A stretch of 64,000 nucleotides of DNA from Bilabrum cf. latius (GCA_965178125.1 OZ237752.1:558001-622000); one strand, 5' to 3'. Shown: positions 1-64,000, counted from the first letter of the stretch. Notes: a model not told the origin generated them from the letters alone. Program-made: numbers and translations.

Positions 1-1414
1 GCGCCTGGTCGCCGCCCACCCTCCCCGCCAGCTCCTCCTGCATGAGCTGGAGGGCCAGGGCCTGGCTCTCGTCCTGCTCCCCGCCGGCACCCGCGCCCGC
101 TCCGCCCATCTGCGCCAGCGCCATCTGGTAGGACGCGTGCTGCAGCCGCTGCACCGCCATGCGCTGCTCTTCCTCCATCAGGCGCATGGCCAGCGCCAAG
201 GAGTCCTCCTCACTTGTGTTCCCTGGAGCCTCTTGCTGCGCCCCTTCCTCGTCCTCATCCTCCTGCTGCTCCGGCGCGTCGGCCGCTGCGGCCTGCGATC
301 TCGATGCACTCGTCACACCAGTCGGAGGCACCTCACCGGGGCTAAGTAGCATGGAAGCATCCCTGCTGGTACCGTCTCCCGAAAACATGCCGCCGGCACT
401 CGACATACTGCCGCCGATCCCGCTCACATCCATGCCGCTGTCGTCTCCAACACCGCTCCCGTCTCCCCGCAGTGCAGCCAGCATCGCGCCGGAACCGCCG
501 GGTGCCCTGGACTCGGCCTCACCAGCGGTCTGGTTTTCTGATTCCGAGTCCATAGACATGGACAGGAGCGCCGCCTCGTCGCACCCGTGCTCCGGCGACT
601 TGCTCTCCTCCTCCTGCCCCTCCCAGCGGCGGTGATCCCGGGCACCCCCCCTCCTCCTGCCACTCGCCGCGGCTGACATATCGAGCGCCCGGCGAGGGGC
701 AGGTCCCGATCGTAGCCCCCCAGATCTGCGCGACGAGGACGAGGAGGACCAGCCGCGGCCGCCAGAGGCAGAGGCAGCCGCTGCACCCTAGGACACTCCC
801 GCGCTGCCCTCGTCCTGACGGCGGCGGCGCCTGCGGAACCGCTGCCTGCGCCTTGATGAAGATACTGGTGCCTGTTGCTCTGCTACCTCAGGGCTCTCAC
901 CTGCTGCCTGCGCCGAATCGGGAAGGCCGCGACCCGCCGCCCGCACAGGAGCAGATGCTCCCGCGGCCGGCGTGTCGCCGAACATCAGGCGGGCCCTTGG
1001 CCCCGATGAAGATGGCTCGGCAGAACGTTTCGATTCAATACGAATCGAAGACATATCGCTGCCAGAGCTCATGCGCCGCTGCCCATTGTCGATTGATTCG
1101 CCAGTTGCACCTCGTGCAGGCTCCCGCGGTCGAGTGGCACCCTCATCGAGTTCATCTTCCTCTGCCATCAGTAACGAGGCCATCATAAGACTTGACTAGG
1201 ATACTTTGGGAACGTGCGTGCTAGATTCATCGCTGCTTTCGTTGCGTGCCGTTCCGTCGCCTCGTGCAGCTGCTGGCAATTCCGGCATTCGATCCAGGTC
1301 TTCAATGCGCTTCACGCCGTGTTGAGCGATATCCGGTACCGGATCCTGGTACGCAACTGGATTTGGCCCCAAATCACCGAACAACTGTCTGCAAGCCATG
1401 CTTTCGTTGTTCAT
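1..1414 (-). CDS. Low-complexity protein with two ubiquitin-binding (MIU/UIM-like) helices; 3' end runs off the window
   Basis: One frame from ATG 1414 to the window edge, broken only by TAG at 1196 and 788. It contains SEEDSLALAMRLMEEE and DESQALALQLMQEE. Confidence 0.65.
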
Positions 1415-1561
1415 GGTCTGCGACTGTAGTTCTGGCGCGCGAACGGATTTGAGCGCCTTGTAGCGTGCACTTTGAAGACCAAGTGCGACATAGTGAAGTC
1501 AAGTGCAACACTGCTGCTTTGGACCCAGTAGGCTTCGATTTATTCGCTCCAGGCTGCAGCC

Positions 1562-2689
1562 ATGCATGTGCTATCTAGCGTAGTTCTGTTTGGTTTGGGT
1601 GTCTCTGCGTAGTCGCCAAATGGTTCGCCTGCACAGTTGCAGCTTTTGGATCTTACGAAATTCCCACACGCCAAGTGTATGGACGGATCGCCGGGAGGTT
1701 TTTACGTTCAGAAGGCATTGAATGCACCTGATTCAAGCAAATGGACCATCAATTTGCAAGGCGGTGGCGAGTGCACGACAGCGAGACGTTGCATTCCCCA
1801 AATCAACTCCACGCTTGGCTCCTCCAAGAACTGGGCCGAAACTGAGTATCTGGGGTGGTATGGCATCTCAGATAAGTCGCAAAACCCTGATTTGTGGGGA
1901 TGGAACCACGTCAGGGTGGCGTACTGCTCACAGGACCTGTGGACGGGCCAAGGTACCGAAGCGTCCAACGCAACCTTCGGCGCGTACTTTGCCGGCCACC
2001 TGATCCTGGAGGCTGCCCTGAGCACTTTGGAGGCAGACTACGGGCTAGACAAGGCAACAGAAGTCGTTCTGACCGGCGACTCGGCGGGTGGCATCGGCGT
2101 GTGGCCGAACCTGGACTGGGTCGCAGGCAAGTACCCTAACGCTCGCGTGGTAGGCGCACCGGTGGCAGGCTTCTACTTCTTCGCTGACCCGTACACGGGC
2201 CCGGGACACACGAGCAGCGGACTGGCTGACTTCAGGGCTCCCGCATGGCCGCAGCACTACCACCTGTGGAACAGCTTCGTGGACGAGGACTGCGCCAGGG
2301 CGCTTCACGACCGGCCGTGGGACTGCGTGCTGGCCAACAACACCAAGCAGTTCGTGTCAACGCCGGCGTTCATCTCAGAGGCACAGACGGACAAGGTGGT
2401 GCTCACGGGTCACGACTGGATCCCCGAGGACCTGAAGCCCGCGCAGTACGTGAAGCCGTACATGGAGCAGTGGAGGGACAACATGACCCAGGGGACGCAG
2501 GAGAGGGTGCAGCGGGGGGACGGCCTCTTCAACCCTGCTTGCTTCATGCATACCTCCTTTTCCCCCTCCAAGCCGCTGCTGCAGGGACTCAACTTTCTCC
2601 AGGTGTTCGGCAACTGGTACTACGGCAGATCGGGGCCTTCTGTGGTGAGGGACTCATGCGGGATCATGTGCAACCCAACCTGTCCGTGA
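1562..2689 (+). CDS. Secreted pectin acetylesterase / Notum-family carboxylesterase (375 aa)
   Basis: Motifs AKCMDGSPGGFY, LQGGGEC, WNHVRVAYCSQD, GDSAGG (nucleophile elbow) and ACFMH. The signal peptide MHVLSSVVLFGLGVSA is joined to the mature protein through TAG 1610-1612. Ends TGA. Confidence 0.9.
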
Positions 2690-2830
2690 TGGTGACTTGG
2701 GGGACGTTTGATTTGAGTCTGCAGAGTTACGAGGTCCCCAATCGCTCTGTGAAACCAAGACACTGAATTGCCCGCCCCTGCGCATTGACTCTGCGTCCAA
2801 GGCGCACTGGGCGTCAGCCCTTCCCTTCTA

Positions 2831-5405
2831 TCACGGGTTGGAGGAACCCATGGATCCGCTCGCAAGCAGCCGTACCGCCAGGTCAGACGTGGCCGACTCG
2901 GACCCCTTCATAGTACCGCCCGCACTTGATGATGACCCGCCCTGGGACCCACTCTGACTGGCCTGCTGCGTGCTTGCAGGCACGTCCACTCCTGCCGACA
3001 GCCCTGCGCTGCCCATGCCCAGGCCACTCCCAGCACCACCACCTGCAGCAGAAGTCTGAGCCGTTGGCTACGAGGAGGCAGGAATCGGCCGGCCCAGCAT
3101 GCCCGTGTCGACCGGCTGGGGCGTGGTGTCGCCGAGGGCCCCTCCGTCCTCTGAGTCTCCCGTCAGCCGGGGAGTATCTGCAACCGAGGCAGGCACGTGG
3201 CTGTGCATCGGGCCTGTGCTGCTGGCGGAAGTGGAGCCCGTGGTAACAGACCCGGGGACGCTGCTAGGCGCGCTGCTGTGGTTCCCCGACCCGACAGAAT
3301 CGGCTCCGAATCCGATGCCTGCCGCCGAAGAGGAGGAGGAGGGCGGCAGCTGGGGCACTCGCACGTTGGGGTGCTGCGGCTGCTGCTGCTGCTGCTGCTG
3401 GTGGCTGAAGGCCCCAGCATGACTGGATGCGTGATGCGTTGATTCGCCTGGCTGCAAACGTTGCTGCTGGGCCGAAAAGAAGCCGCCACCGCCTCCATGC
3501 ACCTGTGGGCCCGGCAGCGGCATCAGCGATGACCCTTGCTGCGCTAAGCTGTGCATCCCAAGGGAAGCAGACAGGGAAGGAGACGTCGATGACTAAACCA
3601 GGGAAGCAGAGGGGGCCATACCAGTGGACCCGTAGGACATGGTCAGCACCTGGCTAGCACCAAGTCCAGGCGCGCCTGCATGGGAGGATGGCCCCACCAT
3701 GGGCACTGACACAGCCGCAGACACTCCGGCGTAGCCTGGCAGCAGCTGGCCCTGGCCCTGGCCCTGACCGTGCCACTAGACCAAGTCCTGGTTGTGGCTA
3801 TGCCGCATCCCATTCGAGGGAATATCCAGCATCATGGCACCTCCCTGGTGCAGCCCGCTGTTGCTAGCAATGGCAGGCGCCAGGGACGGGTGACCATGCC
3901 CTTGATCGAGGCCATGCCGGTGCCCATGTCCGTGACCGTGCCTGTGGTGCCCATGCCCATGCCCATGCCCATGCCCCGCGCCCGCGCTGCTGGGCGCAGT
4001 CGAGGAGGCAGTCCCTCCCATGGCAGCGTCTGCCTGCACCCCTTCGGACTGCTCCACCGCCCGAGACAGCATCCGGAGGGTCTCTGCCACGTCGGACCGA
4101 TTACTCGCGGACCTGACCAGCCTCTCCGCCTTCTGCAGCGCAGTAGACTGCATCTCAACGCTCCGCAGCTGTTCCAATAGCTGCTCCCGATCTGCCTGCA
4201 GCTACTGCTGGATCTCACTCAGCCTCATCTGCATGTGCAGCTCCTGCCTCTGCCTGTCCCCCTTGCACCTGTCTCTGGCCTCCGAGCGAAGGTTCTCCAG
4301 CAGCTGCTGAGGGTCCTCTGCGACAGACGGAAGCAGCTGAGTGGAGGCGCCAGAGTGCATGTCACCCCTCCCCCCAGCCCCAGCCCCAGCCCCAGCTCCA
4401 GCCGCGGCCCCGGGCCCCCGTGCCCCGAGGGGCAGCGAGGGCGGGCTTCTCTCTGCACCGGCGGTTGCGACTGTGCTTGCACTTCCGGTTCCAAGTCCGG
4501 CGATGCTAGGGTACTGGCGCAGCCACGATGCAGGGGAGGTCGCGGGGGCGCCACCCGCCGCCTGCTGGGACATGGCGCTGATCTCTTCCAGTCGCTTAGC
4601 CGACTTGGCCTGCGCGTAGGGCACTATGGGCTTGCCCTGCTTTTTGCGGAGGGGCTGCCATAGGCGCTTGCGAGCGTTTGTGAGCCTGTGTAGGTTGGAA
4701 GGATAAGGCATGGAGCGCGCATGCTTGTGCTAGTGGCACGGGCCTGATAGATGGCTGGTGACGGCACATCGAAGTTCTCTCACCAGTTCACCAACTACTT
4801 ATTGGTTATGTTGCACTCCCTCGCTAGCTTATCTTTTTCCTGCACGAGTTAGAAGCTCAGGGGAGTAGGATATCGCTGATCAGTTGGTGATGTGCAAATG
4901 CTGTGCTGCCTGTCACATGCTAGATACCACGAGCAGCGCACTGGTCCTAACGAAACGATGCGAGAACCACAGCAGATCCCATCTAGACTATGTTGTGACA
5001 TTCCCGACCAACTTTTTGCGAAGCGTTTGCAATGTGCCAATGCCACTGGCGGCAGTTGCATGTAAACCATCAAAGCTCCGTCAGCGCACTCACAGCTGGG
5101 GAAGGGTACGGGTGATCGAAGTGTTCTGGAGACAGCAGCCATTTCCTAAGTATCTCTACCGCCCGTGCAGGTAGCTTTTGTCGGGAAGATTCCTAGACCC
5201 GTGTCCGCTTATTTGAGTAAGCCTCGTCGTCCGAGCTATCCACGCTGGATGATCTAGAATTCCTACTAGCCCTTTTTGGCAACCGCTGCGAGGCAATGAA
5301 AATATTAACTAGATTAGAATAAACAAGATTAGACTCGCTTTGCGAAAAGCGATATCGCTTGGTCGATACATTGAGAACACATCGTTGGACTCGACCATCT
5401 GGCAT
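2831..5405 (-). CDS. TALE-class homeodomain transcription factor with long Q/H/G/S-rich C-terminus
   Basis: Spliced homeodomain LPARAVEILRKWLLSPEHFDHPYPSPA|EKDKLARECNITNK[TAG]LVNW|LTNARKRLWQP, with introns 4840-5093 and 4686-4783. About 6 in-frame TAG; ends TGA 2833-2831. The start is either ATG 5405, or ATG 5398 with a 53-nt GC-AG intron at 5286-5338. Confidence 0.9.
4686..4783 (-). other. Spliceosomal intron (phase 2) splitting the homeodomain Trp48 codon
   Basis: GTGAGA donor and ACACAG acceptor. TG|G restores NWLTNARKR. Confidence 0.85.
4840..5093 (-). other. Spliceosomal intron (phase 0) in the TALE homeobox
   Basis: GTGAGT donor, CTAAC branch-like motif and TGCAG acceptor. Removal restores PYPSPAEK. 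Confidence 0.85.
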
Positions 5406-7775: not shown

Positions 7776-8627
7776 TCAGAAAGGCTTGAAGTGCCTAGCG
7801 TTCTTCATGCGCTGCACCTTGGCCTTGTCCGCCTTGAAGCGGGACCGGACCTCGGAGAGCTGCCTCAGCTGCTGCTCCCTTCGCTTGAACTTGTACAGCG
7901 TGGAGTCGTCCCCGCCTGCCCCCGAGGCCGCCTTGCGTCTCTTCTTGCGAGCTCTGTCGCTCTCCACCAGCCTGCCCTCATCCGCCCGCGCCACCGTGCG
8001 GAACCCCCTGTCATCTGCGGCGCCGCTGATGGCGTCCAGACTCGCCTCCACCTCGGCCTCCCTGGCCTCGTACTTCGACACCTCCTCGTCCACTTCCAGC
8101 TGCAGGCCCGCCTCATCGCTCCGAAAATCCCGCCTGTTTATCCAAGCCTGAATCATTCCGGATGATGACGACGAGGAAGAGGACTAGGAAGAGGACAAGC
8201 CCTGCGCCGCAGCCGATGAGCTCGGCTTGCCGCTGGCCATCTTGCTTTGTGGTGACGACCACAATGCTGCCGCATCCTTTGCGGCTGCTAACTTGAAAAC
8301 TATGCACCGCATCCCTACGTACTGGCTGAGCGCCTCGCCACACTCCTGCAGTTCACCGATGGCTGCTAGAGTCTTCACCAATGCCTCCGGCGCAACGCTT
8401 TCAGGCACAAGCAGAGCAAACTGGCGCTTCGATTTCTTGGATAGCAGCCCATGAATCTCTTCTACCTCTCCGGCGCTCTTCACAGACAGGGCAACAAGTT
8501 TCCAAGGTAGCTTAACCTTAAGGGGCCGCGGTGTCCCGGAAGATTTGCTGCTTTCGGCCGGGACTGAGCTCTGTGTTGCCTAAACTCTGGCCTATTGAGA
8601 CATTTCACTTCTAGATCGTTTCGGCAT
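7776..8627 (-). CDS. RRP7: Ribosomal RNA-processing protein 7 family (283 aa)
   Basis: C-terminal LYKFKRREQQLRQLSEVRSRFKADKAKVQRMKNARHFKPF and DDRGFRTV match the RRP7 domain. ATG 8627, three in-frame TAG, ends TGA. Confidence 0.85.
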
Positions 8628-8848
8628 GGCGAGCGCAATGTGCATGTTCCTCTGGTGCAACTCAGAAAAATTAAGCAGTGTCATTTCAGGCAGAAATACC
8701 AAACTCTCTAAAGGGCAACTGCCTCAACTGCAATGCTACTAGATGTGCTCGTCGGATACTTTCAGCGAGAATGAATTTCAAAAGATCTAAACATCATTGG
8801 TGATGCTAGTCAGATCCAGATAAATCACACTTTCGAACTATTTTTTGA

Positions 8849-12258: not shown

Positions 12259-12375
12259 CTTCCGGTTTGCCGTAGTGGTCAGCGCGAACGTCATTCGAAT
12301 CAGAGAGAGTTCCCCGGTTCAACTGCTGGCTCTGCAGACAACGAAACGGCACTATATCCGCGGAGGAGATATTAT

Positions 12376-13818
12376 ATGGCAGCCCCAGCACTAGTAGTTG
12401 GCGTGTGCCTTGTTGATGCCTTTGCTGTTGGAGCTACAGCTGCGCTCCAGGCTGGCGTGAACCGCACCATCGGCGACTACTTGAAACACGCAATGTTCGG
12501 CACCTTCACGAGCTTTGTGGGTGCCATGATCCTTCTATTCTTCATTAACGTGGCTGCAACCGGGTATAGAATCCAATAGCGTGCAGAGCGCCAGAAATTG
12601 TCTTCCGTAGAGTCAACGACAGAAGCGACTGAGGATTCGAGTGCCACTGCTTCCGCTGATAGCCAGAGCGAAAACAGGAAGGATGCTGATGATGATGCGC
12701 TATTTTTCCGAAGACCTCTGGCGTGGTACGAGTACACGGGCGGCTTGCTTGGCTCCTTTCAGGTAGCAGCCGCTGTGTTCATTAGTCCGATCGTGGGGTT
12801 CGCTCTATACTTTGTTGGGCTGGTGCTCGGGCAGCTATTTTCGGCGGCCCTGGTAGACCACTACGCCTTTCTGGGCCTTCCACGCCGACCGTTCTCGGTC
12901 CTTCGCGGTCTTGCCGCCGGACTGGCCGTGGTCGGCGTGGCTCTCGCGTCAAGCGAAGCCATCGGCGACGCCGACTCTGACGCGGTCGGTGGCATGGTGG
13001 GCGGGCTGCTCGTCGCTGTCCTTGCAGGGGCCGGTCTCCCGGTCCAGTCTGCGATCAACCGGTCTGCCGCGCAGGCGCTCAGGGGCCCGGAACAGGGCGC
13101 CACGCTCAGCTTCACCGTGGGGCTGATCGCCTCGGGGATCGGCTCGCTGGTCGTGGGTCTCGCGGCGCAGGAGCCAGATGTTGCGGGGGCGGTGGAGGAC
13201 GCCCCATGGTGGGCGTGGATCGGGGGCTCCGCGGGTGTGTTCTTCGTCGTGTCTGCGATCGTGCTTCCGAGCTTCATCAGCGTGAGCAGCATGTTCCTTG
13301 CGATCGTCACAGGGAATGTGACCGTGTCGGTGGTGCTTGACGCAGTGGGTGCATTTGGGAATGAGGCACAGGATCCCAGTGCTATGCGCATCGTGGGGTG
13401 CTGCCTTGTACTGGCGGGGGCGTTCTTGGGGGAATATGCTCGCATGCATGCCGGCGAGGAGGAGAAGGGGGGAGAAGAACAGGAAGAGGAAGGTATCCGG
13501 GGGGGTGAGCATGGTGGAGGTCAGAGGCACGCATAGGCCTAGGGGGGCGAGGCGCAGAAATTGGTAGGGGTCGATGGAGAGGGTGATGATGGAGGCCTAA
13601 CGGAATGCGAGGAGGTGAAAGATGGGGTGCACGATGCGCGGGCCACTGGCTCTGGCAGTGCAGGAGCACCACCAGCCCAAGACCTCCCCAGGAGCCCGCT
13701 GCTTGCAGCTGGGGGAGCAGCTGCACCGCCGGCGGTGGAGCTGGTTCCGGTGCCAGCAGAGCAGGGGCAGGGCGCTGGGACTGTAGAGTAGAGGGATGCC
13801 ACGCACGCGAGTGCCTGA
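12376..13818 (+). CDS. DMT-superfamily transporter with two YdcZ-like halves (480 aa)
   Basis: Paired motifs ALQAGVNRTIG / PVQSAINRSAA, WYEYTGGLLGS / WWAWIGGSAGV and GQLFSAALVDHY / GNVTVSVVLDAVG. About 10 hydrophobic helices, four in-frame TAG, ends TGA 13816-13818. Confidence 0.85.
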
Positions 13819-13918
13819 CATGTGCTGAGAGACAGAAAAAAATTGAGTGACCAAGCAGGAGAATTCGGAGCGACTTCCTCGAATTGGGTGCTGGGCATGA
13901 CAGCACTATCGATTCATC

Positions 13919-16664: not shown

Positions 16665-17615
16665 TCACCACTCGATTGGCCTCTGATCGTGCCAGAACCC
16701 CCCAGTCGGTGGGCCCCCGGCCTTGGCCAACTCCTCCTCGGGTGCTGTTGCCAGCCACACGGGCGTCTCTGCACCCTTAGCCGCAGACCTATGGCCCTTG
16801 TGGCTGCTCATCGAGGTGGAGCACCACCCGGGGCACACGGTGTGCACGGCCACTGGGGGCGCGTCGAAGCTCGAGGCAGGGGCATCGGGGCCACTGGAGG
16901 CAGCAGCCGAGGCGCTCTTGCTCTTAGATGCATCGTCCTTGGCCGACTCCCACTTTAGGTCGCGCGCGAGTGCTCGTGAGTATGCGATCTCGAGGAGCTT
17001 GCTCACTCCGTACATCGAGTTGGACCACCCAGAGGCCTCATGCTTGCCCTGCCGGATTGAATCCACGTACTGCTGGCCCAGTGCAATAGCGTGAGCCTAC
17101 GTAAAGTCGTCTGCGTTGACACGCGACTGAAGATCTGATGAGATCTGATCCAGCTTGCCGGCCTGGCTGCACACGTTCACTATTCTCGATCCCTTGGTCT
17201 TCTTGATTAGGGGGAGCAGGGCATCTGTGACACGCTTCGTGCCATGCAGATTAACGTCCAATGTAGCTGCGGCTTCACTTGCTCCAAAAGTGGAACCCTT
17301 GTACGCAAATCCCGCATTGTTCAGCAATGCATGGATCGGCTGGCCGAGATCAGACACCCATTTCGAGAACTTGGCAACCGACGCCTCGTCAGTAATGTCA
17401 AGTGTGTGAAATAATGGCTTATCCAGCCCCTCTTTCTCCAGTGCATCAATGGCACTGCTGCCTTTTTCTTCTGTTCGTGCCGTCAGAACAGGTACGTGTC
17501 CCGTGCTCATAGCTTTGCTAGCCAAGATGGCCTTCACAGCTTCAAACCCAATCCCCTAGTTGGACCCAGTAACGATAATGAGCGATTTCACTGCCCTACC
17601 TCCTGATGCTGCCAT
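16665..17615 (-). CDS. Short-chain dehydrogenase/reductase, carbonyl reductase-like (316 aa)
   Basis: Rossmann motif VTGSN[TAG]GIG, LLNNAG, catalytic YGVSK and VCPGWCSTSM. Two TAG, ends TGA. Confidence 0.92.
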
Positions 17616-17753
17616 TTCAATTTTCAAGCACAAAGAATGTCTGCTGGGTCGGCTTCGTCTTTGGAGCCAAACCGGAACAGTCTGTCCTGCCCAGAAGTGC
17701 AACTCGATTGTCGTTCACGCTGCTTGACTCTGCCTTTGATCGTTCTTGCAAAT

Positions 17754-18064
17754 ATGGAAGTCATTGTCACTCATCTGATGACAGGTGCTGAAACAACTGG
17801 ACAGACGGTCTTGATTTCGTTCGCGAAACGAAATGTAGCTTCCTCGGCGGCGGGTACGATACCAATCTCGCTGTTTCCGACGAACCCCAAGCATTCAGAA
17901 TCGTCTCCCCGTGTCAAATCAAATGAATCGGTGCAAACAATAGGCTCGAAACGGTCGCGTGCCGATACCACGGCTGCAAGCGAAGATGTGTCGCAAGGAC
18001 CTAGTTCTTCACAGCTGGGTAGCATAGCAGAAACACAGCCACAACCAGACCATAGTATCGGAAG

Positions 18065-18104
<40 letters not shown>

Positions 18105-25728: not shown

Positions 25729-26011
25729 GATTTGAGTTGGTGAAATGTTTGCGCAGTTGTCACCTGGAAAAATTAAAGAGCGCAACGACGCTTGCGCTGT
25801 CGTCATGGCTGTCGACGACAGCCTGTCGTGCTGATTTTCAAAATCTGAATTTAGTTTCTACACGCAACAACATTATTTGTGCTCGGTTCAGCGAATTTAA
25901 CAGCTTCAGCTGTGCGCTGGCTTCATCTAAACGTGTTGAGGACCCCGTTTGAACCACACGCGCATTCTAGTAAGTAATAGAATTTATTGATTCATGGTTT
26001 GCAGGCTTACC

Positions 26012-44500: not shown

Positions 44501-44512
44501 AGGGGATTTTTT

Positions 44513-48200: not shown

Positions 48201-48406
48201 ACTTTGAGACTGAGAGCGTGGTGGAGGAGGACATGCTTGAGGCAGGCGCGGGAGTGGGGGAGGGAGCAGAGGCAGGCGAACGTGGAGGAGCAGGTCGCGG
48301 GGATGGTCGAGCCGCGGCAGCTCCCCGGCCGCAGTACACCGCTGCCGACCTCGCGATGGGGTTCCTGTCTCATGACGAAATAAATCGGCTCGAGCGTATG
48401 CATTGA
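45271..48406 (+). CDS. Long coiled-coil protein; join(45271..45523,45618..48406), ~1,013 aa
   Basis: E/Q/A/R/L-rich heptads in one frame joined by TAG, including tandem TAG TAG at 47363-47368. Intron 45524-45617 (GTACGT...TTGCAG, phase 1). Ends TGA. Confidence 0.75.
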
Positions 48407-56049: not shown

Positions 56050-56342
56050 GATTGGGCAGACCACCGGTGGATTGCTGCCCAAAACGGACGATCAGGAATT
56101 AGACCAGGCACTGCGCTCTTATTGAGACTTAGTCACGCGCCAAGCGGCAGACATGCTATACGATTAATATTTACTGCAGCACTTTGCAGCAGTTTTGAGG
56201 TCCGTTCGGCCATTTTTCGCTCCGGACCACATATTGGCGCCGCGCACGAGATTGAGTGCGTGTTCCGCACGAACTGCATTGTACGAAATTGTGCCAAGCA
56301 CAAGCTGTAGACACGGCTGCCGAAGGGTTTCATTCGCTGATC

Positions 56343-58664
56343 ATGATTGGTTCGCGTAAGCGGGGCAGAGAGGAAGCATTCGGTACGAAATCTAGTCATC
56401 CAAGTGAAGATGCTGGCGACGATGAGTTTGCGCACCTGTTCGACGAGGGTGACAGCCAAGATAAGGCAGGGATTGGACATGTTGCATCGACCGTGGGTGA
56501 TACATAGTTTTCAGATACGCAGGAAAGGACTGCTGGTGCCGATTCAGCGTCGTCTCGGGGTGGTATTTCCGAGGTGAGGGCAAGGAGATAGTCTAGAGCT
56601 AGCGATCAGGGCGCCATGTCGACGGATGATGCCACGAAACTGGTTTTGAACTTGATAGAGGCGCAACAAACCAACGAAAAGATGCGCGTGAAGCATGCCG
56701 GCGAGCCTCGCGAGTTTATGGAAAGCGAAGCGGAGCTCCAAGCTGCTGTTGGCACCGCCTCGGATCTGGCGGCGCAACCGGAGCACTTTGCCACCGCCGT
56801 TCGTGCCGGCCTTTGCGATGTTTTGCGATCGCTCTTGCGCCACGAGAACGAAGACATCGTTGCCGACACGCTCGAAATGCTCGAGGAGATGACCGAGACG
56901 GACGCGCTTGCGGAGCAGGTCGAGGGCGGCTCTGCACTCGTGGGCGGGCTGGAATCATCAGGGGCCTTGGCCGCAGTCGTGGAGGCTGGCATTTCTCTCG
57001 ATCTCGCCGCTCGCGCCCGGCCGCCTGCCCCCGCCCCCCGGAGCGATGCAGGCATCGCGGGCAAGGCCAGCAAGGTGAAGGTGCAGGAGCTCTCGGACCA
57101 GGCTGAGGCAAGGGTGGCGGCTTAGGAGGCTGCGGGGAGGGCGAGGGAGGGCCTAGGATCGGCGCTGTCTGTGCTTGGGCACGTGCTGGAGTTCAGGCCG
57201 GAGGCGGGTGACCTGCTCGCCACCAGCACGCCGCTCCTCGCGTGGCTGCTTGCTAGGCTCAGGGGTGCCACTGCCGGCCCTTCCGCGGCGGAGGATGACG
57301 AGTGCGACCACGACTCGGCAGAGCTGCTGGCAGTGCTGCTGGGATAGAGGGGCAGGGCGAGGCAGGTGCTGGGCACCAGGGCGGGAGCGTGGGGTCCCGC
57401 GGCGGCGGAACCGGGCGCCGCCGCGCAATCCGCGGAACGTGTCGTTGTGGCAGCTCCCGCGCTGCCGCACTCTGGCGTTGCCTCCGTCTTGCAGGCACCT
57501 ACAATGCCTAGTTCCGCAGGCGCTAGCGGCACCACGCAGCCGAAGGACGAGGCCGGCGGCATCGCCCTGGCAGGCAGCGACGGGGTGGAGGCCCTGTTGC
57601 TGGCAGCCAGCGGTGCCCTGCGGAGGGAGCCGGAGACCATGCCGCAGCAGGAGGCGATCGAGTGCGTCTTCGCGGCGGTGCGCGGCGCCCTTGCGGAACC
57701 GGCGTGCCGCGTGTTGTTCCGCAGGTACGAGGGCACGGAACTGCTGGTCCGCGTGGCCCAGCGGCAGGGCTATGCATCGCACTGCGCTGTTGCCGCGCTG
57801 GAGACCGCGCTGACCCAGGACTCTGAAGCCTGCATCGCGTGCGTGGAGGCGGGCGGGCTCAAGGTGCTTCCAGCGGTCGCGAGGGGCGCCGCGCGCGCTG
57901 TGACTCGGAGGCACACGGACGGGGAGACGGCGGACGAGGAGGAGAAGCAGGCGGCGGCGTGCCTGTCTTGGCTGCTGTAGCTGCTTCCCGGCGGCGCCAG
58001 GGACGCCCCGATGGCCAGACGGGCAGCCGCGCGGGCCGCAACTGCTGGGGCCATGGGTGCATCTGAGGGGGATGGGCCGGTTGCGTTCGGGCTGGAGCAG
58101 TCTCTGCGGCTGCGGGTGCTTGGCAAGATGCTGGAGGGGGACGGGCTGGTGCTCGCCAGGATGGTGGAGATGTACAGAGACTTGGGGGCGGCGGTGGCGC
58201 AGGCCGACAACAGGGTATTGTCTGGGCTGCAGGACGCCGGGGTGGGGGGTCCTGGGGGGTAGATTCTGGCTGTGGGCAGCGTGACAGTGGGTGCAGGTGC
58301 TGGTGCGGGAGCGGGTGCCGGAGCTGCATCGGGCTCGGTGGTGGTCTTGGAGGATCCCTCTCTTGAGGAGCATCGGTTTAGGCGTGATGCGGCGCTCAGG
58401 GATGCGGGTGTGACGTGGCTGATGCGGCTCGCGGAGGCGCTCGCTCGTTGTTCCCTGGGCGACAGGAGGTGCCGGAAGGTGGTGCTGGGCAGGATGCGGG
58501 AGCTTGGCGTGCCCTGCGGTGGGGTCAGCGCCTGCCTCGCGAGGGAGGCCGGAGAGGTGGCCAAACAGGAGGGTGGTGATAGTGGATCGTCGTAGGAGGT
58601 TAACGCGAAGAGGGCAGGAGAGCTTGTAGCGCTCGCGGAGGGATGGGCGGCAGTGTGCAGCTGA
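56343..58664 (+). CDS. CTNNBL1: Beta-catenin-like protein 1 (spliceosomal Prp19-complex associated), 773 aa
   Basis: NEKMRVKHAGEPREFMESEAEL and SLLRHENEDIVADTLEMLEEMTETD match the CTNNBL1 N-terminal domain; FRRYEGTELL further on. Seven TAG, ends TGA. Confidence 0.88.
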
Positions 58665-58795: not shown

Positions 58796-59595
58796 TCAGC
58801 TGCTGCCCTTTTCATCCCCGGCACCGCCAGCACTCCCTTCCTCTTCCTCGCCCGCAGCTGCTCCAGCCATGAGATCCACGTAGGCTTTCGCTCGTTCTAG
58901 CTCAGACAACAATTCATAAAACTGAGGCAGCGTGAGCTCGCAGAAGACAGGCTCTGCTTCGCCGGAGCCCTTGTCCAAGACCAGCTTGAGCTGCAAATAC
59001 GTAGCTCCCAGCCTCTTCACTTCGTCTGTGCTCACGGTGACACCAAAGTTCCAGCTTAGATCAATAAGGCTATTCACACTCAAACTCTAACTTCCCGCGG
59101 CGTGCGCAACATCGGAGGCTCTCGCGGCAAACACTTCGCCAACCTTTGCAGCGCCCGCGCTCGGCATGCCCAACGCTGCCAAGTCTTTTTGCACCGAATC
59201 CGCCGAGCAGCTGTGCTGGATGGCACCCTAAATAACGACAAGCAAAGAGCGTACAACATTCTTCATTGTGGACTCTTTGGCGCCTATCTTCCCAGACAAG
59301 TCCGAAGTTGCGGCAACGATATCTTGGCCCTGAGCACGACAGTCAAGGGAAGATTGGAACGCTTGAGGCGCTGTTATACATACATATGGTCTAAGTGAAT
59401 TGTTCTATGTTCTGAACTCACGCTGGGATCGTGCAAGAAGTCAAACACTAAATCAGCAATTTCTGCAGCCTGCTCAGTGGACAATTTCCCAAACAAATCA
59501 AGATCGTTTCCGAGTCGAGACTGCTCATCCGATGGGAGTGGATCACCACCTGTGAATGAGAAAGTTTCTGTCGCCAACCCTTCCGCTGCTGCCAT
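58796..59595 (-). CDS. COMMD7: COMM domain-containing protein 7; join(59422..59595,58796..59329), 235 aa
   Basis: S[TAG]SLSVNSLIDLSWNFGVTVSTDEVKRLGATYLQLKLVLDKG...ELTLPQFYELLSELE. Intron 59330-59421 (GTGAGT...GCTCAG). Ends TGA. Confidence 0.9.
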
Positions 59596-59750: not shown

Positions 59751-62700
59751 ATGAAGATGGAGTGGCCAGCATTTGGTGCTGATGAAAAACCAGACATCGT
59801 TTGCACGCTTCGACCGCAGCGAAACGCGGCATTATTGCCGCAGCCGAGACAGATTTCGGGCCAGGTTGCAATTCACATCATTGATATGAAAATGAATAGC
59901 AGTGAATTTGAAAGGAATGGCTCATCTGCAGAATACGTCACGATCGAGAGGTGCTAGCCTGACCCACAAAGCGACGGTGGCAGCTTGAGTTGGCTTGACA
60001 GCTTGCCAAGGCTCCGAAGCTTGTGCTTGCAGTCGTGCGAGCCGGGTCATTTACCAGGAACATTTCTTGCAGCATCCAGCGGTCGCATATAGAAGCTTGC
60101 GCTTCGAGACTGCGTCCTCAAGGCAAGGCGATCGACTGACTTGCCAGCAGCAGCCACCCGCCGCCGTGGTGAATCTGGTGCTCAGGGAGAGGGAGAAGGG
60201 CCGGGCCATGAGGCTGGAATAGAGAGCGGTCTTAGTCGTCTTTCGTCGTTCGCGAGCCTGCTGCATCTTGATCTGTCCGGCAGTCCGGGCGCCTTTGGGC
60301 CGGGCGGCGCTGGCTTGCCGACCATGCCTCGACTAAGGACCCTCGTCGTGAAGCGGTGTGGCCTGCGGCAGGTGCCCGCCAGCATCCAAGCATGTGTTGA
60401 TCTGACCGACCTGTGCCTGGAGGACAACGAAATCCGGTCGCTGCCCGCATTCATGGGATCGATGCCAGCACTGCATCGGCTGGGGCTGGCTGGCAACTAT
60501 CTGGTCGTGAACGTGAGCGTGCATGATGAATACGAGGACGAGGACGATGGTGCACCAAATTTCAAGTCGTCATCTTCATCGTCATCGTCATCGTCATCGT
60601 CGTCATCATCGTCTTCAGCTTCGTCGTCGGCTGGGAGGGCCCGCGATGCGCGCGAACACGCCATCGACGAGTCTCCGCTGGACCTGCTGGCCCGCCTGCC
60701 GACACTGAGAGAGGTCTCTCTGCGCGGCAATGCGATGCGCGTGCACATCGACTCCGGAGCTGGAGAGCTGGACGTCGCGTGTGAGGGCCCCGCAGCGGAA
60801 GCCCTCGTCCAGTCTAGACTACCGATGGTGCAGCGACTGGACGGGGTGCAGCTGGGGGATCCCGCACAAGCACAGGACGCAGCTACTGCTACTGGGGGAT
60901 AGGGCGGGCAGCAGGATGGCGATAAAGTCCATCATGAGCACGATGGCGATGAAAAGACTCTCAGCAGCAATAGCCACAGCAGCAGCCTGGGTGTGAGCAG
61001 GGATAGCAGCGGTGGGTCTGCTCCTCCTGCCGATGGCAGGCAGCCACCGAGTGGCCGAATGCCTCCTCGGGCCTCTGCGCACGAAAAGACTCGTGAAATA
61101 CTGGATACTTTACACTCAAGCCATCAAGCCATGGAGACAAGTGGTTCCGAAAATGCTGAAGAACGGAACACCGGCATACATGCATAGCAGCAGGCCGGCT
61201 CCGCTCCGCAGGCAGGACGGGCTGGCGATGATACATCTGGATCGGCAGTTGGAGAGGGTGAGGTAATTTACACACTTATGATCTCAAGAGCTTGCACCAT
61301 ACGTATAGTGACCATATTGCGTATCGAGGCGCTGGGCACAGTCCATTGTCCTTCCTTTGTTCCCTGTCTCCCGCCGCAGCAGCAGCATCCACCACCGTCA
61401 AACGCACCAAGAGGCACTGGGGTGAGAGCGAGGATGCTCTGCTGACCGCAATCATAATGGGGCTAGCTGGGCACCCCGATGGATCAGGCGGGTACAGGCT
61501 TGATGGAGCCTCGGACCTCAAGCTGGCCCGGCTGGAGTGGCGCGAGGTGGCTGCTCGAGTGCCTGGTAGGTCGAGCAAGCAATGCAGGGAGCGGTGAGTG
61601 CAGCGCTCACTAGAGCGAGGTATCTTGCCTGGTACTATTCCACACTAATTCAAAGACGCTTTCTTCTCTCAGTGCACAAAAACCCACAAATGGTTGGGGA
61701 TCTTGCCCATTGCCTTGGCTGGCCATTCCTCGCAGCTGGATGAACCACCTGGACCCTCGCATTTCCAGGAGGCCATGGAGCCAGGAGGAGGACGAGATGA
61801 TCGAGTCACTGAGAGCCTAGCTGGGCAACAGATGGAAAGACATCGCGGCGCAGATGCCGGGGCGATCAGAAAACGCGGTGAAGAACAGGCACTACAGCAC
61901 GCTCAGGCGGAAAAGCAGGAGCTAGAACCGCAAGAAAGCCGCAGTGTCTTCAGACGACAGCGGGGCAGCCAGAGCGGCACTAAAACACCTGCCTGCGTCT
62001 AGTTCTGCTGGCACTGCGTCCGAGCTGCATGCAGTTGCGCTGTCGACCGCGAGCGCGTCCAACGGCGCGTCTGCCTTGGCAGCTGCATCCCGAGCTGTTG
62101 CCAATGGATTGCCAAGGCTGTAGGCACTGCCGCCTGACCAACAGTTCGCCAAGGTGGTCCGGTGCATTCCCGCGTCACATCCTTCCGGTGTGTCCACTTT
62201 GCATCTGGAGCTACCCGCGTGTGTTGAGACGTCCAGCATCGAGTGCATCCTCAGCCGGCTGAGTGTGGTGATCGACAGCGTCAGGCAGGACGCCGCCGCG
62301 GAGGGCATGCACCGTGGCGATGAGGTCGAGAATGGTGTGGCTGAGCCAGACACCAACATGACGGTCCTCTCTCTGGTGCCGAGAGACGAGCTCGCTAGCC
62401 ATCGCGGCCCACCCCATGCGGCGCACGATGGGCTCGCGGGGGTGACTGGACAAGACTCTGGGGGTGATTCTGGGCCTTCTGACGGCCATATGGGGCCGGG
62501 CGCTCACAGATCAAAGTAGAGTGGGCTGCAAGCCTGGAGGGGTATCGATCGAGCTGATGAGGATGTGGACGTGAGTCTGAGGCAGATGGGACGCAAGTCG
62601 GCCCGTAGGACCATGAGATCAAGCGCCGCCGACGGCGAAAGTGCCCAGTGGTCCCGGAAGCCGCACGCTGCAAGTTCTAGTACGAACGGCCCGGGGATAG

Positions 62701-63533
62701 GCTCTGACGCACACCCCAGTGATGGTGGCCCATCATCTCGGGCTGCGAAGAGGCCACGCCTGTAGGATGCTATGCTGCAGGGCAATGGCACTGGGTCTGT
62801 CAATGAACAGCAGCAGTAGTTTGGTGGCATGGCACTCCTCTCTCAGGTGGCTTAGTCGCGACTAGGGGCGCGCAGTGAAGCTGTCCGAATGCCTGCAGCC
62901 CGCAGTGCGGCGGCCTCGGCTGGGTCTTGGAATGAACGGACTGGGAATGGAGCGAGCACCGGAATGGACGGTGAGGGCGGCAGACAAGGCAGCACGGGTA
63001 CGTCTATGGCAGCCGGTGAGTCATTCGTCCAGGGGCTCAGTGGTCTTTCTTCGATGGGATCGCCCGTTGGGCCAGTACCTGGGTCCATGCCACTATAGCA
63101 GTATGCAATCGAGGGGAGCTCCATGTCGTCGCTGCCTTCTGCACCCAGTGCTGGCTCCAATGGGGGCGGTGGGTCTGTTGGCATGAGAAGGCATGTCGCA
63201 CGTTATGACGGTGCTAGTGCCAGTGCAAGTGCTTCTGGTGTGGATGGATCGGCTTCTTCGAATGCGGAGATCGCCAACGGACGCCGCACGGTGCGCTGGA
63301 AGCATGCACATGACACGGAGCAAGCTAGTGCTAGTGCTAGTGGCGGCACTTCTGATGCAGCTGGAGCGGGCCAAATATCGCAAGCAGGTATTGAACAGGA
63401 TGACGTTTTGCTCACCCTGGACACTTCGCACCCGGATGGACCGCGGTGGGTCCGCCTTGACGCGCTGGAAGGGGCTTCAGCCAAGGTTGTTGAGCAGGCA
63501 TCATTGCCCCAGGGGGATGCTCGGAATCAGTGA
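59751..63533 (+). CDS. LRR + two-repeat Myb (R2R3-like) fusion protein; join(59751..61257,61380..61593,61736..63533), ~1,172 aa
   Basis: LRRs (LTDLCLEDNEIRSLP, LHRLGLAGNYL), then HWGESEDALL..WREVAARVPGRSSKQCRER|WMNHLDPRISRRPWSQEEDEMIESLRA[TAG]LGNRWKDIAAQMPGRSENAVKNRHYS. Introns 61258-61379 and 61594-61735, about 12 TAG, ends TGA. Confidence 0.78.
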
Positions 63534-63766
63534 GGAGCTGGTAGCTATAGACTGAGGTGATTGGGAGCATTAAAACTGCTAGTTGTCCAATGCACTACAA
63601 CATGATGACTACTGCACCATTGCTCATCACTTCCAGATGGGTGGAGGTGGGAAACCACCGCCACTCCGTGAAGTAAACATCAGACGACTAGAATGGCCAT
63701 CATGATGGGACACTCGTCACTGTAGCTCGCTAGTCTACCGTTTGGAATTTCGACATTTCAGCCATA

Positions 63767-64000
63767 ATGGCCCAAGAAACTGTCGAGGGCGACCCAGATA
63801 TTCTGATTGGCGCGGCAGCAAAAAGCGCGCCGTCATTGCGAGGGGCTTTTGAAGGCTTCTTAAAGCGTCGAAGAGATGCTGCCGAGTCCGACGCATCCGC
63901 TGCTCGTGGCAAAGCTGGGGCTAAAGTAAAACCATGGCAAAGAAAGCCAAAAGCAGGCGAATCTAAAGAAACAAAACCAAACAATGCTGTGAAAGGCCCA
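63767..64000 (+). CDS. 5' end of a hypothetical protein running off the window
   Basis: ATG 63767 opens MAQETVEGDPDILIGAAAKSAPSLRGAFEGFLKRRRDAAE..., open to the window edge. Confidence 0.55.
   Translation, partial: MAQETVEGDPDILIGAAAKSAPSLRGAFEGFLKRRRDAAESDASAARGKAGAKVKPWQRKPKAGESKETKPNNAVKGP

What the first reader, a model, noticed from the sequence alone, without database searches (positions are those of the whole stretch)
1..64000. Non-standard nuclear genetic code: TAG encodes glutamine throughout the window
Seen in the sequence: nearly every gene is broken only by in-frame TAG (well over 100 by eye), with the frame and protein motifs continuing across it. This includes normally essential genes (RNase Z, RRP7, CTNNBL1), so pseudogenisation cannot explain it. 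Gln is supported at conserved sites: homeodomain K[TAG]LVNW at 4795-4797 (family xQVxNWF), SPPL WAFVL[TAG]DLVG at 15251-15253 (WAWILQDILG), COMMD7 S[TAG]SLSVN at 59087-59089 (GQTLMIN) and Myb A[TAG]LGNRW at 61818. There is also CAG CAG CAG TAG in a poly-Q run near 62817, and tandem TAG TAG at 39308-39313 and 47363-47368, which leaky readthrough would hardly tolerate. Established knowledge: UAR=Gln is known from ciliates, diplomonads and some green algae. Inference: this GC-rich, intron-poor genome looks like none of those and may be an independent, possibly unreported origin.
Basis: partly seen in the sequence, partly recalled or inferred. Interest (0 to 1): 0.95.

Follow-up and report, generated by a model that had tools for sequence, protein, structure and literature searches.

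The report
TAG codes for glutamine here
This stretch of a GC-rich protist nuclear genome reads the stop codon TAG as the amino acid glutamine and ends its genes with TGA, a rare genetic-code variant that environmental relatives share.

Summary
In 21 long reading frames (18,795 codons) there are 136 in-frame TAG and no in-frame TGA or TAA. Every frame has at least one TAG, and all 20 complete frames end in TGA. One frame runs 5,085 codons with 38 TAG.

Independent assemblies from three studies match the laid 20 kb (7700-27699) exactly. Spliced, so RNA-derived, contigs keep the TAGs.

Evidence for Gln:
- 102 of 112 SPPL homologues have Q at the TAG of 15251, and so does a 97%-identical relative.
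- TALE homeodomain, COMMD7 and a relative's CobW gene each place TAG opposite a conserved Q.
- Two metagenome contigs (L001, L002) carry the orthologue of the giant gene with 26 and 21 in-frame TAG and no TAA or TGA. Across 2,834 aligned columns, Gln beats the next amino acid by 11 log-likelihood units.

TAA is not a sense codon here, but it was also never seen as a terminator (0 of 22 gene ends), so its status is open.

UAG-only-to-Gln is a known code type. The lineage could not be placed; its nearest named homologues are stramenopiles. No tRNA or eRF1 could be examined.

The parts
1..64000 (.). Nuclear DNA of a gene-dense, 59.8% GC eukaryote. About 22 genes are readable only if TAG is a sense codon.
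   Evidence: 136 in-frame TAG in 21 frames (18,795 codons). 20 of 20 complete frames end in TGA. Longest frame is 580 aa under the standard code and 5,085 aa with TAG as sense.
25991..41248 (+). Giant gene of 5,085 codons: FG-GAP/integrin-alpha-type repeats followed by a long membrane-spanning C-terminal part. It has 38 in-frame TAG, including the tandem TAG TAG at 39308-39313, and ends in TGA.
   Evidence: FG-GAP families among hits. Orthologue in L001/L002 at about 40% identity, ending at the same C-terminus.
13901..16435 (+). Signal-peptide-peptidase-like gene (PA domain plus Peptidase_A22B) with 6 TAG. The key TAG is at 15251-15253.
   Evidence: Pfam E 2.7e-60. Column of the TAG: Q in 102 of 112 homologues. 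The 97%-identical relative P0122 has Q there.
4783..4842 (-). Middle exon of a TALE-class homeobox gene, with a TAG at 4795-4797. It is flanked by a CAG acceptor and a GTGAGA donor. The upstream exon ends near 5093.
   Evidence: Exon and splice sites read. All 7 PDB hits are Exd/PBX1 (E 0.37-1.2, weak because the query is 20 aa). In the 5 alignments printed, the TAG faces Q of ITVSQVSNW.
58799..59266 (-). COMMD7-like gene (COMM domain) with 2 TAG. The TAG at 59087-59089 faces Q of human COMMD7. Ends in TGA.
   Evidence: Pfam COMM_domain E 9.6e-16. Human COMMD7 is the best PDB hit, E 2.8e-26; the two TAG face N and Q. COMMD4 has C at the second site.
17607..20255 (+). RNase Z (ELAC2-type) gene with 8 in-frame TAG, at 18399, 19017, 19248, 19314, 19356, 19734, 19869 and 20058.
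   Evidence: Pfam. PDB ELAC2 E 1.5e-35. All 8 TAG lie inside an X5 contig with 0 differences. The TAG columns are variable among 120 homologues.
7776..8723 (-). RRP7 gene with 3 TAG. The Pfam domain runs to the last residue before the TGA.
   Evidence: PF12923, profile positions 5-120 of 120 matched to residues 202-315 of 315.
56256..58664 (+). CTNNBL1 (beta-catenin-like 1) gene with 7 TAG.
   Evidence: Pfam E 4.9e-50. PDB CTNNBL1 E 6.7e-20; two aligned TAG face D and R.
61458..63533 (+). Myb-domain gene with 10 TAG, including 61818-61820 in the Myb repeat and CAG CAG CAG TAG at 62808-62819.
   Evidence: Pfam. At the Myb-repeat TAG, c-Myb has R and B-Myb has V, so the site is not informative. 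Coordinates checked.
16665..17714 (-). Short-chain dehydrogenase (carbonyl-reductase-like) gene with 2 TAG.
   Evidence: Pfam. In 5 printed PDB alignments the TAG face K, K, R, K, K at the first site and E five times at the second.
22170..22269 (+). 100-nt GT..AG intron. The spliced contigs that remove it also carry the in-frame TAG at 22465-22467.
   Evidence: table 5 (joint 22169 to 22270 in X5 and X7) and table 8 (X5 record 13, X7 record 29, 0 other letters). TAG position.
45593..48406 (+). Coiled-coil-like gene with 11 TAG, including the tandem TAG TAG at 47363-47368.
   Evidence: No Pfam family found.
1196..2689 (+). Pectinacetylesterase-family gene. Its 3 TAG lie upstream of the domain, possibly before the true start.
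   Evidence: Pfam E 9.1e-59.
12259..13818 (+). DMT_YdcZ membrane-protein gene with 4 TAG.
   Evidence: Pfam E 6.1e-47.
41855..43504 (-). Ankyrin-repeat gene with 9 TAG. The C-terminal half of the frame may not all be coding.
   Evidence: Pfam Ank families.

Best explanation
The window is nuclear DNA of a GC-rich, gene-dense protist whose translation system reads UAG as glutamine. UGA is the working terminator. UAA is not used as a sense codon and was not seen as a terminator.

Shown here: TAG is a frequent in-frame codon (0.72% of codons, 14.5% of inferred Gln codons) in all genes examined. It is kept in transcripts. It behaves like Gln in alignments. The trait is shared by environmental relatives, so it belongs to a clade and not to one strain.

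Inferred from how other UAG-to-Gln codes work, and not shown here: a tRNA-Gln with anticodon CUA, one base change away from tRNA-Gln(CUG). Cytidine at position 34 pairs only with G, which would explain why UAA is not co-reassigned. Also inferred is an eRF1 that no longer recognises UAG, as with the GTS-motif change reported for Iotanema spirale.
For: (1) Frames. 136 in-frame TAG in 21 frames, 21 of 21 with at least one, and 20 of 20 complete frames end in TGA. A 5,085-codon frame has 38 TAG. TAG is spread evenly along frames (deciles 8-21), and its following base resembles that of CAG.

(2) Not an assembly or editing artefact. Contigs from runs of three studies match the laid stretch with no differing letter. 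X5 and X7 contigs that splice out 22170-22269 carry the TAG at 22465. One X5 contig carries all 8 RNase Z TAG.

(3) Gln at conserved sites. SPPL: Q in 102 of 112 homologues, and Q in the 97%-identical relative P0122. TALE homeodomain: Q in 5 of 5 printed alignments. COMMD7: Q in human COMMD7. The CobW-type gene in L001: Q in E. coli YjiA in 2 of 2 alignments.

(4) Relatives. L002 is open over its whole 7,614 nt (2,537 codons: 21 TAG, 0 TAA, 0 TGA). L001 has a 2,455-codon frame with 26 TAG and 0 TAA, ending in TGA. Both are orthologues of the giant gene.

(5) Reciprocal test over 2,834 aligned columns. The relative's TAG face window residues Q9, R4, E3, S2, T2, TAG2 and five singletons. Window TAG face S3, R3, E2, A2, D2, Q2, TAG2 and five singletons. 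Window Q faces a relative's TAG in 7.1% of cases, against 2.2% or less for every other residue. With substitution frequencies taken from the same alignment, the 44 pooled observations give Q as best, then K -11.2, E -14.6, R -14.9 and S -23.3 log units. The classifier recovers the true residue in at least 196 of 200 resamplings for every amino acid, and the TAG sample is a typical draw from the Q distribution (quantile 0.66).

(6) Fragment ends. Five fragments of relatives have alignments that reach their own C-terminal end. The next window codon is TAG, CAG, CAG, CAG and ACC.
Against: Distant-homologue columns alone do not settle the amino acid. Over the 9 usable TAG columns of RNase Z and SPPL, Q scores -1.99 and R -2.47, and one SPPL column is P in 69 and V in 25 of 112.

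Several single PDB comparisons put TAG opposite H, E, D, R, K, N or V. These are normal partners of Q at variable sites, but they do not identify it.

Window TAG face Q in the relative only 2 of 23 times; the signal comes mostly from the reverse direction.

Neighbour-residue enrichment is weak: Q 1.46-fold, I 1.86-fold.

No tRNA gene is present in the window, L001 or L002. No genome is held, so neither the tRNA nor eRF1 was seen.

The runs' RNA labels are guesses, and X5 is marked 'probably DNA'. Their RNA origin rests on the spliced joints alone. There is no peptide evidence.
Confidence: 0.9

Rival explanations
1. Both UAA and UAG mean glutamine (a table-6 type code as in ciliates, Hexamita and some ulvophytes). 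Under this reading TAA is simply too rare in this GC-rich genome to appear in the sample.
For: TAA was never seen as a terminator: 0 of 20 gene ends in the window and 0 of 2 in L001. In non-genic frames, by contrast, 49 of 251 ORFs of 120 aa or more end in TAA. In nearly all known nuclear codes UAA and UAG share a meaning (passages of PMC5304391 and PMC11687900).
Against: There is no in-frame TAA in the gene bodies. When only TGA is taken as stop, TAA appears only within the first 100 or so codons of the extended frames, upstream of the likely starts. With CAA:CAG at 202:601, 136 TAG would predict about 46 TAA; none is seen. The 5,085-codon frame has 66 CAA, 38 TAG and 0 TAA. The relatives' frames have 0 TAA in 2,455 and 2,537 codons.
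Confidence: 0.06
2. TAG is a sense codon for a different amino acid, for example Lys, Glu, Arg, Ser or Leu, as in Scotinosphaera (Ser) or the rhizarian exLh (Leu).
For: Some TAG columns favour other residues: K/R and E in the SDR, P/V in one SPPL column, S/R/A in one RNase Z column. R is nearly tied with Q on distant-homologue columns. One TAG lies inside a poly-Ser run and one inside a Pro/Ser/Thr-rich linker.
Against: The orthologue-based likelihood puts K, E, R, S and L at 11.2, 14.6, 14.9, 23.3 and 68.0 log units below Q. The method recovers the true residue in at least 196 of 200 resamplings. The strongly conserved sites are all Q. Four of five fragment ends of relatives fall on window CAG or TAG.
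Confidence: 0.03
3. The code is ambiguous. TAG is Gln inside genes but also terminates some genes depending on context, as stop codons do in Condylostoma or karyorelict ciliates.
For: Two frames have a TAG only 8-9 codons before the TGA. With this sample a true stop at those TAG cannot be excluded. No ribosome-profiling or peptide data are available.
Against: No terminal TAG is needed to explain any of the 22 gene ends. RRP7's domain runs to the last residue before TGA. The giant gene and its orthologue end at the same residues before TGA. TAG shows no depletion towards 3' ends.
Confidence: 0.04
4. There is no code change. The TAGs would then be pseudogene lesions, consensus errors, or sites edited or spliced out of the mRNA.
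For: None found. It remains formally open because no stranded raw RNA reads or peptides were examined and the run types are guesses.
Against: Only TAG interrupts genes, never TGA or TAA. Assemblies from three studies are identical over the laid 20 kb. Spliced contigs retain TAG. Relatives at about 40% protein identity show the same TAG-only pattern at mostly different positions; only 2 aligned TAG are shared.
Confidence: 0.01

Closest known systems
Nuclear code of the fornicate Iotanema spirale (UAG = Gln; UAA and UGA stop). Panek et al. 2017, PMC5304391, and PMC9161772; passages read.
   Same: Only UAG is reassigned and it means glutamine. UAA is not a sense codon. UAG is not needed as a terminator.
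   Different: In Iotanema UAA is the predominant terminator (passage). Here 22 of 22 gene ends use TGA and none uses TAA. The named homologues nearest to this window's SPPL are stramenopiles, not metamonads. Iotanema's eRF1 change (GTS to GGS) could not be checked here.
UAG-only-to-Gln codes in ciliates (Protocruzia tuzeti and two phyllopharyngean lineages). PMC11687900; passages read.
   Same: Same codon and same amino acid, with UAA not co-reassigned. The code type has arisen independently several times.
   Different: This is a 64-kb gene-dense contig at 59.8% GC. No homologue named as a ciliate appeared among the listed hits. From recall, ciliate macronuclear genomes are mostly AT-rich.
UAR = Gln codes (NCBI table 6: many ciliates, Hexamita, some Ulvophyceae, Streblomastix, Amoeboaphelidium). 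As listed in PMC11687900.
   Same: Stop-to-Gln reassignment, with UGA as the terminator.
   Different: TAA is absent from gene bodies here, where about 46 would be expected if it were synonymous with TAG. The defining UAA = Gln feature is not met.
Other UAG-only reassignments: rhizarian exLh (Leu) and Scotinosphaera (Ser). Passages.
   Same: UAG is decoupled from UAA in a non-ciliate nuclear genome.
   Different: The amino acid differs. Leu and Ser are rejected here by 68.0 and 23.3 log units.
Genetic code 15 in bacteriophages (TAG = Gln in crAss-like phages). PMC9523058; abstract seen in the listing.
   Same: Same codon-to-amino-acid change.
   Different: Those are phage genomes translated in bacteria. 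The window holds spliceosomal introns and eukaryotic genes such as a homeobox gene, CTNNBL1, COMMD7 and RRP7.

Membership tests
UAG-only-to-Gln nuclear code (Iotanema / Protocruzia type) | In-frame UAG in conserved, otherwise intact protein-coding genes | tested here: met
   136 TAG in 21 of 21 frames, 11 of them with Pfam families, plus a COMM-domain gene.
UAG-only-to-Gln nuclear code (Iotanema / Protocruzia type) | UAG positions correspond to glutamine in homologues | tested here: met
   SPPL: Q in 102 of 112 homologues and Q in a 97%-identical relative. Homeodomain, COMMD7 and CobW sites also face Q. Orthologue likelihood puts Q best by 11.2 log units. Distant-homologue columns alone are inconclusive: Q -1.99 against R -2.47.
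UAG-only-to-Gln nuclear code (Iotanema / Protocruzia type) | UAA is not a sense codon | tested here: met
   No TAA in gene bodies of the window, nor in 2,455 and 2,537 codons of the relatives. About 46 would be expected from the CAA:CAG ratio.
UAG-only-to-Gln nuclear code (Iotanema / Protocruzia type) | UAA still serves as a terminator | tested here: inconclusive
   0 of 22 gene ends use TAA; all use TGA. If TAA were used at the 19.5% seen in non-genic frames (49 of 251), 0 of 22 has a probability of about 0.01. The sample is too small to call TAA unused.
UAG-only-to-Gln nuclear code (Iotanema / Protocruzia type) | UAG no longer terminates genes | tested here: met
   22 of 22 gene ends are TGA. 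TAG shows no 3' depletion. A minority of TAG terminators cannot be excluded.
UAG-only-to-Gln nuclear code (Iotanema / Protocruzia type) | UAG is present in the mature mRNA (not edited or spliced out) | tested here: met
   Spliced contigs of X5 and X7 carry the TAG at 22465. X5 and X6 contigs carry the RNase Z TAG with 0 differences. Caveat: these are assembled contigs and the RNA labels are guesses.
UAG-only-to-Gln nuclear code (Iotanema / Protocruzia type) | A tRNA able to read UAG as Gln (anticodon CUA) | not testable with these tools
   No tRNA genes in the window, L001 or L002. No Rfam hit. No whole genome is held.
UAG-only-to-Gln nuclear code (Iotanema / Protocruzia type) | eRF1 N-domain altered so that UAG is not recognised | not testable with these tools
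   eRF1 is not in the window and no genome is held.
UAR = Gln code (NCBI table 6) | UAA also encodes Gln | tested here: not met
   0 in-frame TAA against about 46 expected.
Ambiguous stop/sense codes (Condylostoma, karyorelicts, Blastocrithidia) | The reassigned codon also ends genes, and sense copies are depleted near 3' ends | tested here: not met
   No TAG terminator is required at 22 gene ends. TAG deciles along frames are 13, 16, 17, 12, 8, 11, 21, 14, 13, 11.
Stramenopiles (taxonomic placement of the organism) | Conserved proteins branch within or beside named stramenopiles | tested here: inconclusive
   All SPPL hits that carry an organism name are oomycetes or diatoms (one more MMETSP hit resolved to a diatom). 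In the tree, however, the window protein sits in a 17-row clade of unnamed sequences outside the oomycete and diatom part, and the tree has no outgroup. The RNase Z tree is unresolved.

The most novel reading that the evidence does not exclude
An independent and so far unreported origin of the UAG-to-Gln code, in a clade of GC-rich heterotrophic protists outside ciliates and fornicates. The clade may be a stramenopile lineage known only from environmental sequence. In it UGA would be the sole terminator and UAA would be effectively unassigned, used neither as sense nor as stop. That would be a code state not described for any nuclear genome.
Probability: 0.25. Interest if true: 0.85.

Novelty: new member of a known kind. 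Interest (0 to 1): 0.68.

Why it matters
Nuclear codes that separate UAG from UAA are very rare; a handful of lineages are listed in PMC11687900. Each independent origin is a natural experiment on how eRF1 and tRNA-Gln co-evolve to tell two stop codons apart.

Here the variant comes with long genomic contigs, transcript contigs and environmental relatives at two distances: 97% identity, and about 40% in a fast-evolving gene. The age of the change and the turnover of TAG codons could therefore be measured.

There is also a practical side. Any annotation of this genome or of its relatives in metagenomes under the standard code will shatter nearly every gene. The database fragments found show that this has already happened.

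The complete absence of TAA terminators, if it holds genome-wide, would bear on whether a stop codon can fall out of use.

Tried and rejected
- Whole genome: none is held, so no tRNA, eRF1 or 18S search was possible.
- tRNA and Rfam scans of the window, L001 and L002 found nothing.
- Sequencing runs: no RNA holder is listed on record, and the RNA labels of X5-X7 are guesses.
- Searching the giant protein for shorter relatives was swamped by bacterial FG-GAP repeat proteins and gave no close relative. The representative search with its non-repeat part gave the relatives instead.
- RNase Z homologue columns and the nine-column distant-homologue score were too variable to name the amino acid.
- Residues next to TAG gave only weak enrichment: Q 1.46-fold, I 1.86-fold.
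- L001 against L002: 99.7% identical with 13 codon differences, none involving TAG, so there is no polymorphism evidence.
- Taxonomy: the RNase Z IQ-TREE run did not finish and the FastTree version left the query unresolved on a long branch. Cluster look-ups gave no organism names for the relatives or the nearest SPPL and giant-gene homologues.
I dropped that step.
- Considered and rejected: pseudogenes, consensus error, editing, pyrrolysine or selenocysteine-like recoding (TAG makes up 0.72% of codons and aligns with Gln), and TAG meaning Ser, Leu, Glu or Lys.
- Literature: searches found no report of a nuclear UAG reassignment in a stramenopile or in another GC-rich lineage that is neither a ciliate nor a fornicate.

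Full report
THE OBSERVATION

The window is 64,000 bases at 59.8% GC. Under the standard code the longest stop-to-stop frame is 580 aa. With TAG read through it is 5,085 aa, and total frame length in ORFs of at least 150 aa rises from 30,432 to 56,036 aa. Reading TAA through changes almost nothing: the longest frame stays at 580. Reading TGA through opens more total length (72,276 aa), because TGA is the commonest stop triplet in this composition, but the longest frame reaches only 950 aa.

I took 21 long frames delimited by TAA and TGA. They total 18,795 codons and hold 136 in-frame TAG. Every one of the 21 has at least one TAG. All 20 that are complete within the window end in TGA.

Pfam finds real families in 11 of these frames and in a smaller COMM-domain gene: PAE, LRR (two genes), RRP7, DMT_YdcZ, signal peptide peptidase with PA domain, SDR, RNase Z, ankyrin, CTNNBL, Myb and COMM. 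PDB searches confirm ELAC2, CTNNBL1, carbonyl reductase, COMMD7 and Myb as the nearest solved relatives.

NOT AN ARTEFACT, NOT EDITED

Eight public runs were listed for the RNase Z stretch, and seven of them, from three studies, hold it. I laid four of them on 20 kb (7700-27699). No differing letter and no indel was listed.

One run (X1) gives contigs of 12-14 kb and behaves like DNA. It may be the source of the assembly. X5, X6 and X7 give gene-sized contigs.

X5 and X7 each have a contig that joins 22169 to 22270 and skips 100 nt with GT..AG ends. That is a spliced intron, so these data are at least partly RNA-derived. Both spliced contigs also cover the in-frame TAG at 22465-22467.

An X5 contig (18111-21773) covers all eight RNase Z TAG and the three TAG of the neighbouring minus-strand gene. 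X6 contigs, from another study, cover seven of the RNase Z TAG (all but the one at 19734) and those three.

Caveats: these are assembled contigs, the RNA labels are the tool's guesses, and X5 is marked 'probably DNA'.

WHICH AMINO ACID: CONSERVED SITES

The TAG at 15251 lies in the conserved membrane core of the signal-peptide-peptidase-like protein. Of 112 homologues aligned (113 were found; the near-identical one was left out), 102 have Q in that column. The rest are L 4, N 2, M 1, H 1 and 2 gaps. The excluded protein, P0122, is 97% identical over 394 residues and reads Q exactly there.

The homeobox gene on the minus strand has introns. Its middle exon (4783-4842) reads QEKDKLARECNITNK-TAG-LVNW, bounded by a CAG acceptor and a GTGAGA donor. 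The only PDB hits are seven Exd/PBX1 TALE homeodomains. Their E-values are weak (0.37-1.2) because the query is 20 residues. In the five alignments printed, TAG faces the Q of ITVSQVSNW.

In the COMMD7-like protein the two TAG face N and Q of human COMMD7. COMMD4 has C at the second site.

Other sites do not identify the residue:
- The Myb TAG faces R in c-Myb and V in B-Myb.
- The SDR TAG face K, K, R, K, K and E five times.
- RNase Z TAG face H and E of human ELAC2.
- CTNNBL1 TAG face D and R.

Over the nine usable TAG columns of the RNase Z and SPPL alignments, a log-odds score puts Q first (-1.99) but R almost level (-2.47). One SPPL column is mostly P or V. Distant homologues alone would therefore not settle it.

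WHICH AMINO ACID: RELATIVES WITH THE SAME CODE

I searched the representative library with a 1,200-residue non-repeat part of the giant gene (window 34988-38587, 12 TAG). It returned 34 hits, several of them short fragments at 39-94% identity.

For five fragments the alignment reaches the fragment's own C-terminus. The window codon that follows is TAG, CAG, CAG, CAG and ACC. Q plus TAG make up about 5% of codons, so four of five is far above chance. It means the relatives have a standard-code stop where the window has Gln or TAG.

Cluster look-up showed that four of the fragments lie on the same metagenome contigs. The search for related loci fetched two of these contigs as L001 (10,824 nt, 55.5% GC) and L002 (7,614 nt, 57% GC).

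L002 is one open frame from end to end: 2,537 codons with 21 TAG, 0 TAA and 0 TGA. L001 has a 2,455-codon frame with 26 TAG and 0 TAA that ends in TGA. The two are 99.7% identical to each other. They align with the window's giant protein at about 37-42% identity, down to the same C-terminus.

Over 2,834 aligned columns, the relative's TAG face window residues Q9, R4, E3, S2, T2, TAG2 and P, G, L, M, A once each. Window TAG face S3, R3, E2, A2, D2, Q2, TAG2 and K, N, L, G, T once each. Window Q faces a relative's TAG in 7.1% of cases, against at most 2.2% for any other residue.

I scored the 44 pooled TAG-to-residue pairs against substitution frequencies taken from the same alignment. Q is best, followed by K (-11.2), E (-14.6), R (-14.9), N (-22.9), H and S (-23.3), and L (-68.0) natural-log units.

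As a control, samples of up to 44 partners of each true amino acid are classified correctly in at least 196 of 200 resamplings. These are in-sample, so slightly optimistic. The TAG sample's likelihood under the Q distribution lies at the 0.66 quantile of simulated Q samples.

L001 also carries a second gene, a CobW/COG0523-type GTPase (Pfam E 4e-51), with four TAG and a TGA stop. One of its TAG faces the Q of E. coli YjiA in the conserved stretch after the ESTG motif.

TAA AND THE TERMINATORS

No TAA lies inside a gene body. If only TGA is taken as stop, the extended frames of real genes pick up TAA only within their first 100 or so codons, upstream of the likely starts.

If TAA were synonymous with TAG, the CAA:CAG ratio of 202:601 would predict about 46 TAA for 136 TAG. 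The giant frame alone has 66 CAA, 38 TAG and no TAA. The code is therefore UAG-only and not UAR.

TAA was also never seen ending a gene: 20 of 20 ends in the window and 2 of 2 in L001 are TGA. In spurious frames, by contrast, 49 of 251 ORFs of 120 aa or more end in TAA. At that rate 0 of 22 has a probability of about 0.01.

In Iotanema spirale, the best-described non-ciliate with UAG = Gln, UAA is the predominant terminator (passage of PMC5304391). Whether TAA is a rarely used stop here or has fallen out of use cannot be decided from 22 gene ends.

TAG itself shows no sign of doubling as a terminator. It is spread evenly along frames and the base that follows it resembles that after CAG.

MECHANISM

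What is shown: TAG is decoded as a sense codon equivalent to Gln, and the trait is shared by relatives.

What is inferred from established knowledge of such codes (passages of PMC5304391, PMC9161772 and PMC11687900):
- A tRNA-Gln with anticodon CUA. Because C34 pairs only with G, it reads UAG but not UAA.
- An eRF1 whose N-domain no longer binds UAG.

Neither could be examined. There are no tRNA genes in the window or the two loci, and no genome is held.

WHO IS IT

Every SPPL hit that carries an organism name is an oomycete or a diatom. One more MMETSP hit resolved to a diatom. The best named RNase Z hits are oomycetes, followed by Plasmodiophora, green algae and plants.

In a FastTree of the SPPL hits, the window protein and P0122 sit in a well-supported 17-row clade made only of unnamed sequences. 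That clade lies outside the part holding the oomycetes and diatoms. The tree has no outgroup. The RNase Z tree does not resolve the query.

My reading, as an inference: a heterotrophic protist lineage without named genomes among these hits, possibly a stramenopile. It is not shown.

COMPARISON AND NOVELTY

UAG-only-to-Gln is a known code type: Iotanema, Protocruzia and two phyllopharyngean ciliate lineages (passages). The window meets its tested defining features. The exception is that TAA termination was not observed.

It fails the defining feature of the UAR = Gln codes, and it shows none of the marks of ambiguous codes.

Seven literature searches found no report of a nuclear UAG reassignment in a stramenopile or in another GC-rich lineage outside ciliates and fornicates. 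A 2024 stramenopile review mentions only mitochondrial codon reassignment, in its reference list. The library omits most subscription journals and supplements were closed, so this is absence of evidence only.

VERDICT

The finding is real.

I file it as a new member of a known kind. There is a real chance that it is an unreported independent origin with an unusual UGA-only termination pattern.

Noticed in passing
window 25991-41248 (+); L001 3-7370; L002 1-7614: A single 5,085-codon gene: many FG-GAP/integrin-alpha repeats, then a long cysteine-rich, membrane-spanning C-terminal part with no Pfam family. It is conserved at about 40% identity in metagenomic relatives down to the last residues. 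Public protein databases hold it only as short fragments cut at TAG.
   Followed up: partly
window gene ends; L001 7368-7370 and 8103-8105: All 22 gene ends examined use TGA. TAA is used neither as a sense codon nor as a terminator, unlike Iotanema, where UAA is the main stop.
   Followed up: partly
window 4700-5190 (-): TALE-class homeobox gene split by two short introns (GTGAGT...CAG and GTGAGA...CAG). The long frame 2831-4798 downstream probably holds its low-complexity C-terminal part, which includes (GH)n runs.
   Followed up: partly
window 20255-20268: RNase Z (+) and the next gene (-) are convergent, with their TGA stops only 12 nt apart. A single X5 contig spans both, so their 3' ends probably overlap.
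   Followed up: no
P0122 against window 14669-15850: A 511-aa database protein is 97% identical (383 of 394) to the window's SPPL. It starts just after one window TAG and reads through another as Q. It could be an allele, a paralogue or a sister strain or species. Its DNA could not be fetched.
   Followed up: partly
SPPL tree: The window's SPPL belongs to a 17-member clade made only of unnamed environmental or assembly-derived sequences, separate from oomycetes and diatoms. This suggests a lineage with no annotated genome among the hits.
   Followed up: partly
L001 8103-10019 (-): The relative's contig carries a CobW/COG0523-type GTPase gene with a long acidic insert and four in-frame TAG, including a tandem TAG TAG.
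   Followed up: partly
window 41855-43504 (-) and 43870-44745 (+): The C-terminal half of the ankyrin frame and the 291-aa frame beside it look non-coding or wrongly phased: hydrophobic, Pro/Arg-rich and without a family. Gene models here probably need introns.
   Followed up: no
window 51652-56091 (-): A 1,479-codon frame (6 TAG) of very low complexity, rich in Arg, Gly, Ser and Ala, with no Pfam family. GC rises to 64-66% across 48-56 kb.
   Followed up: no
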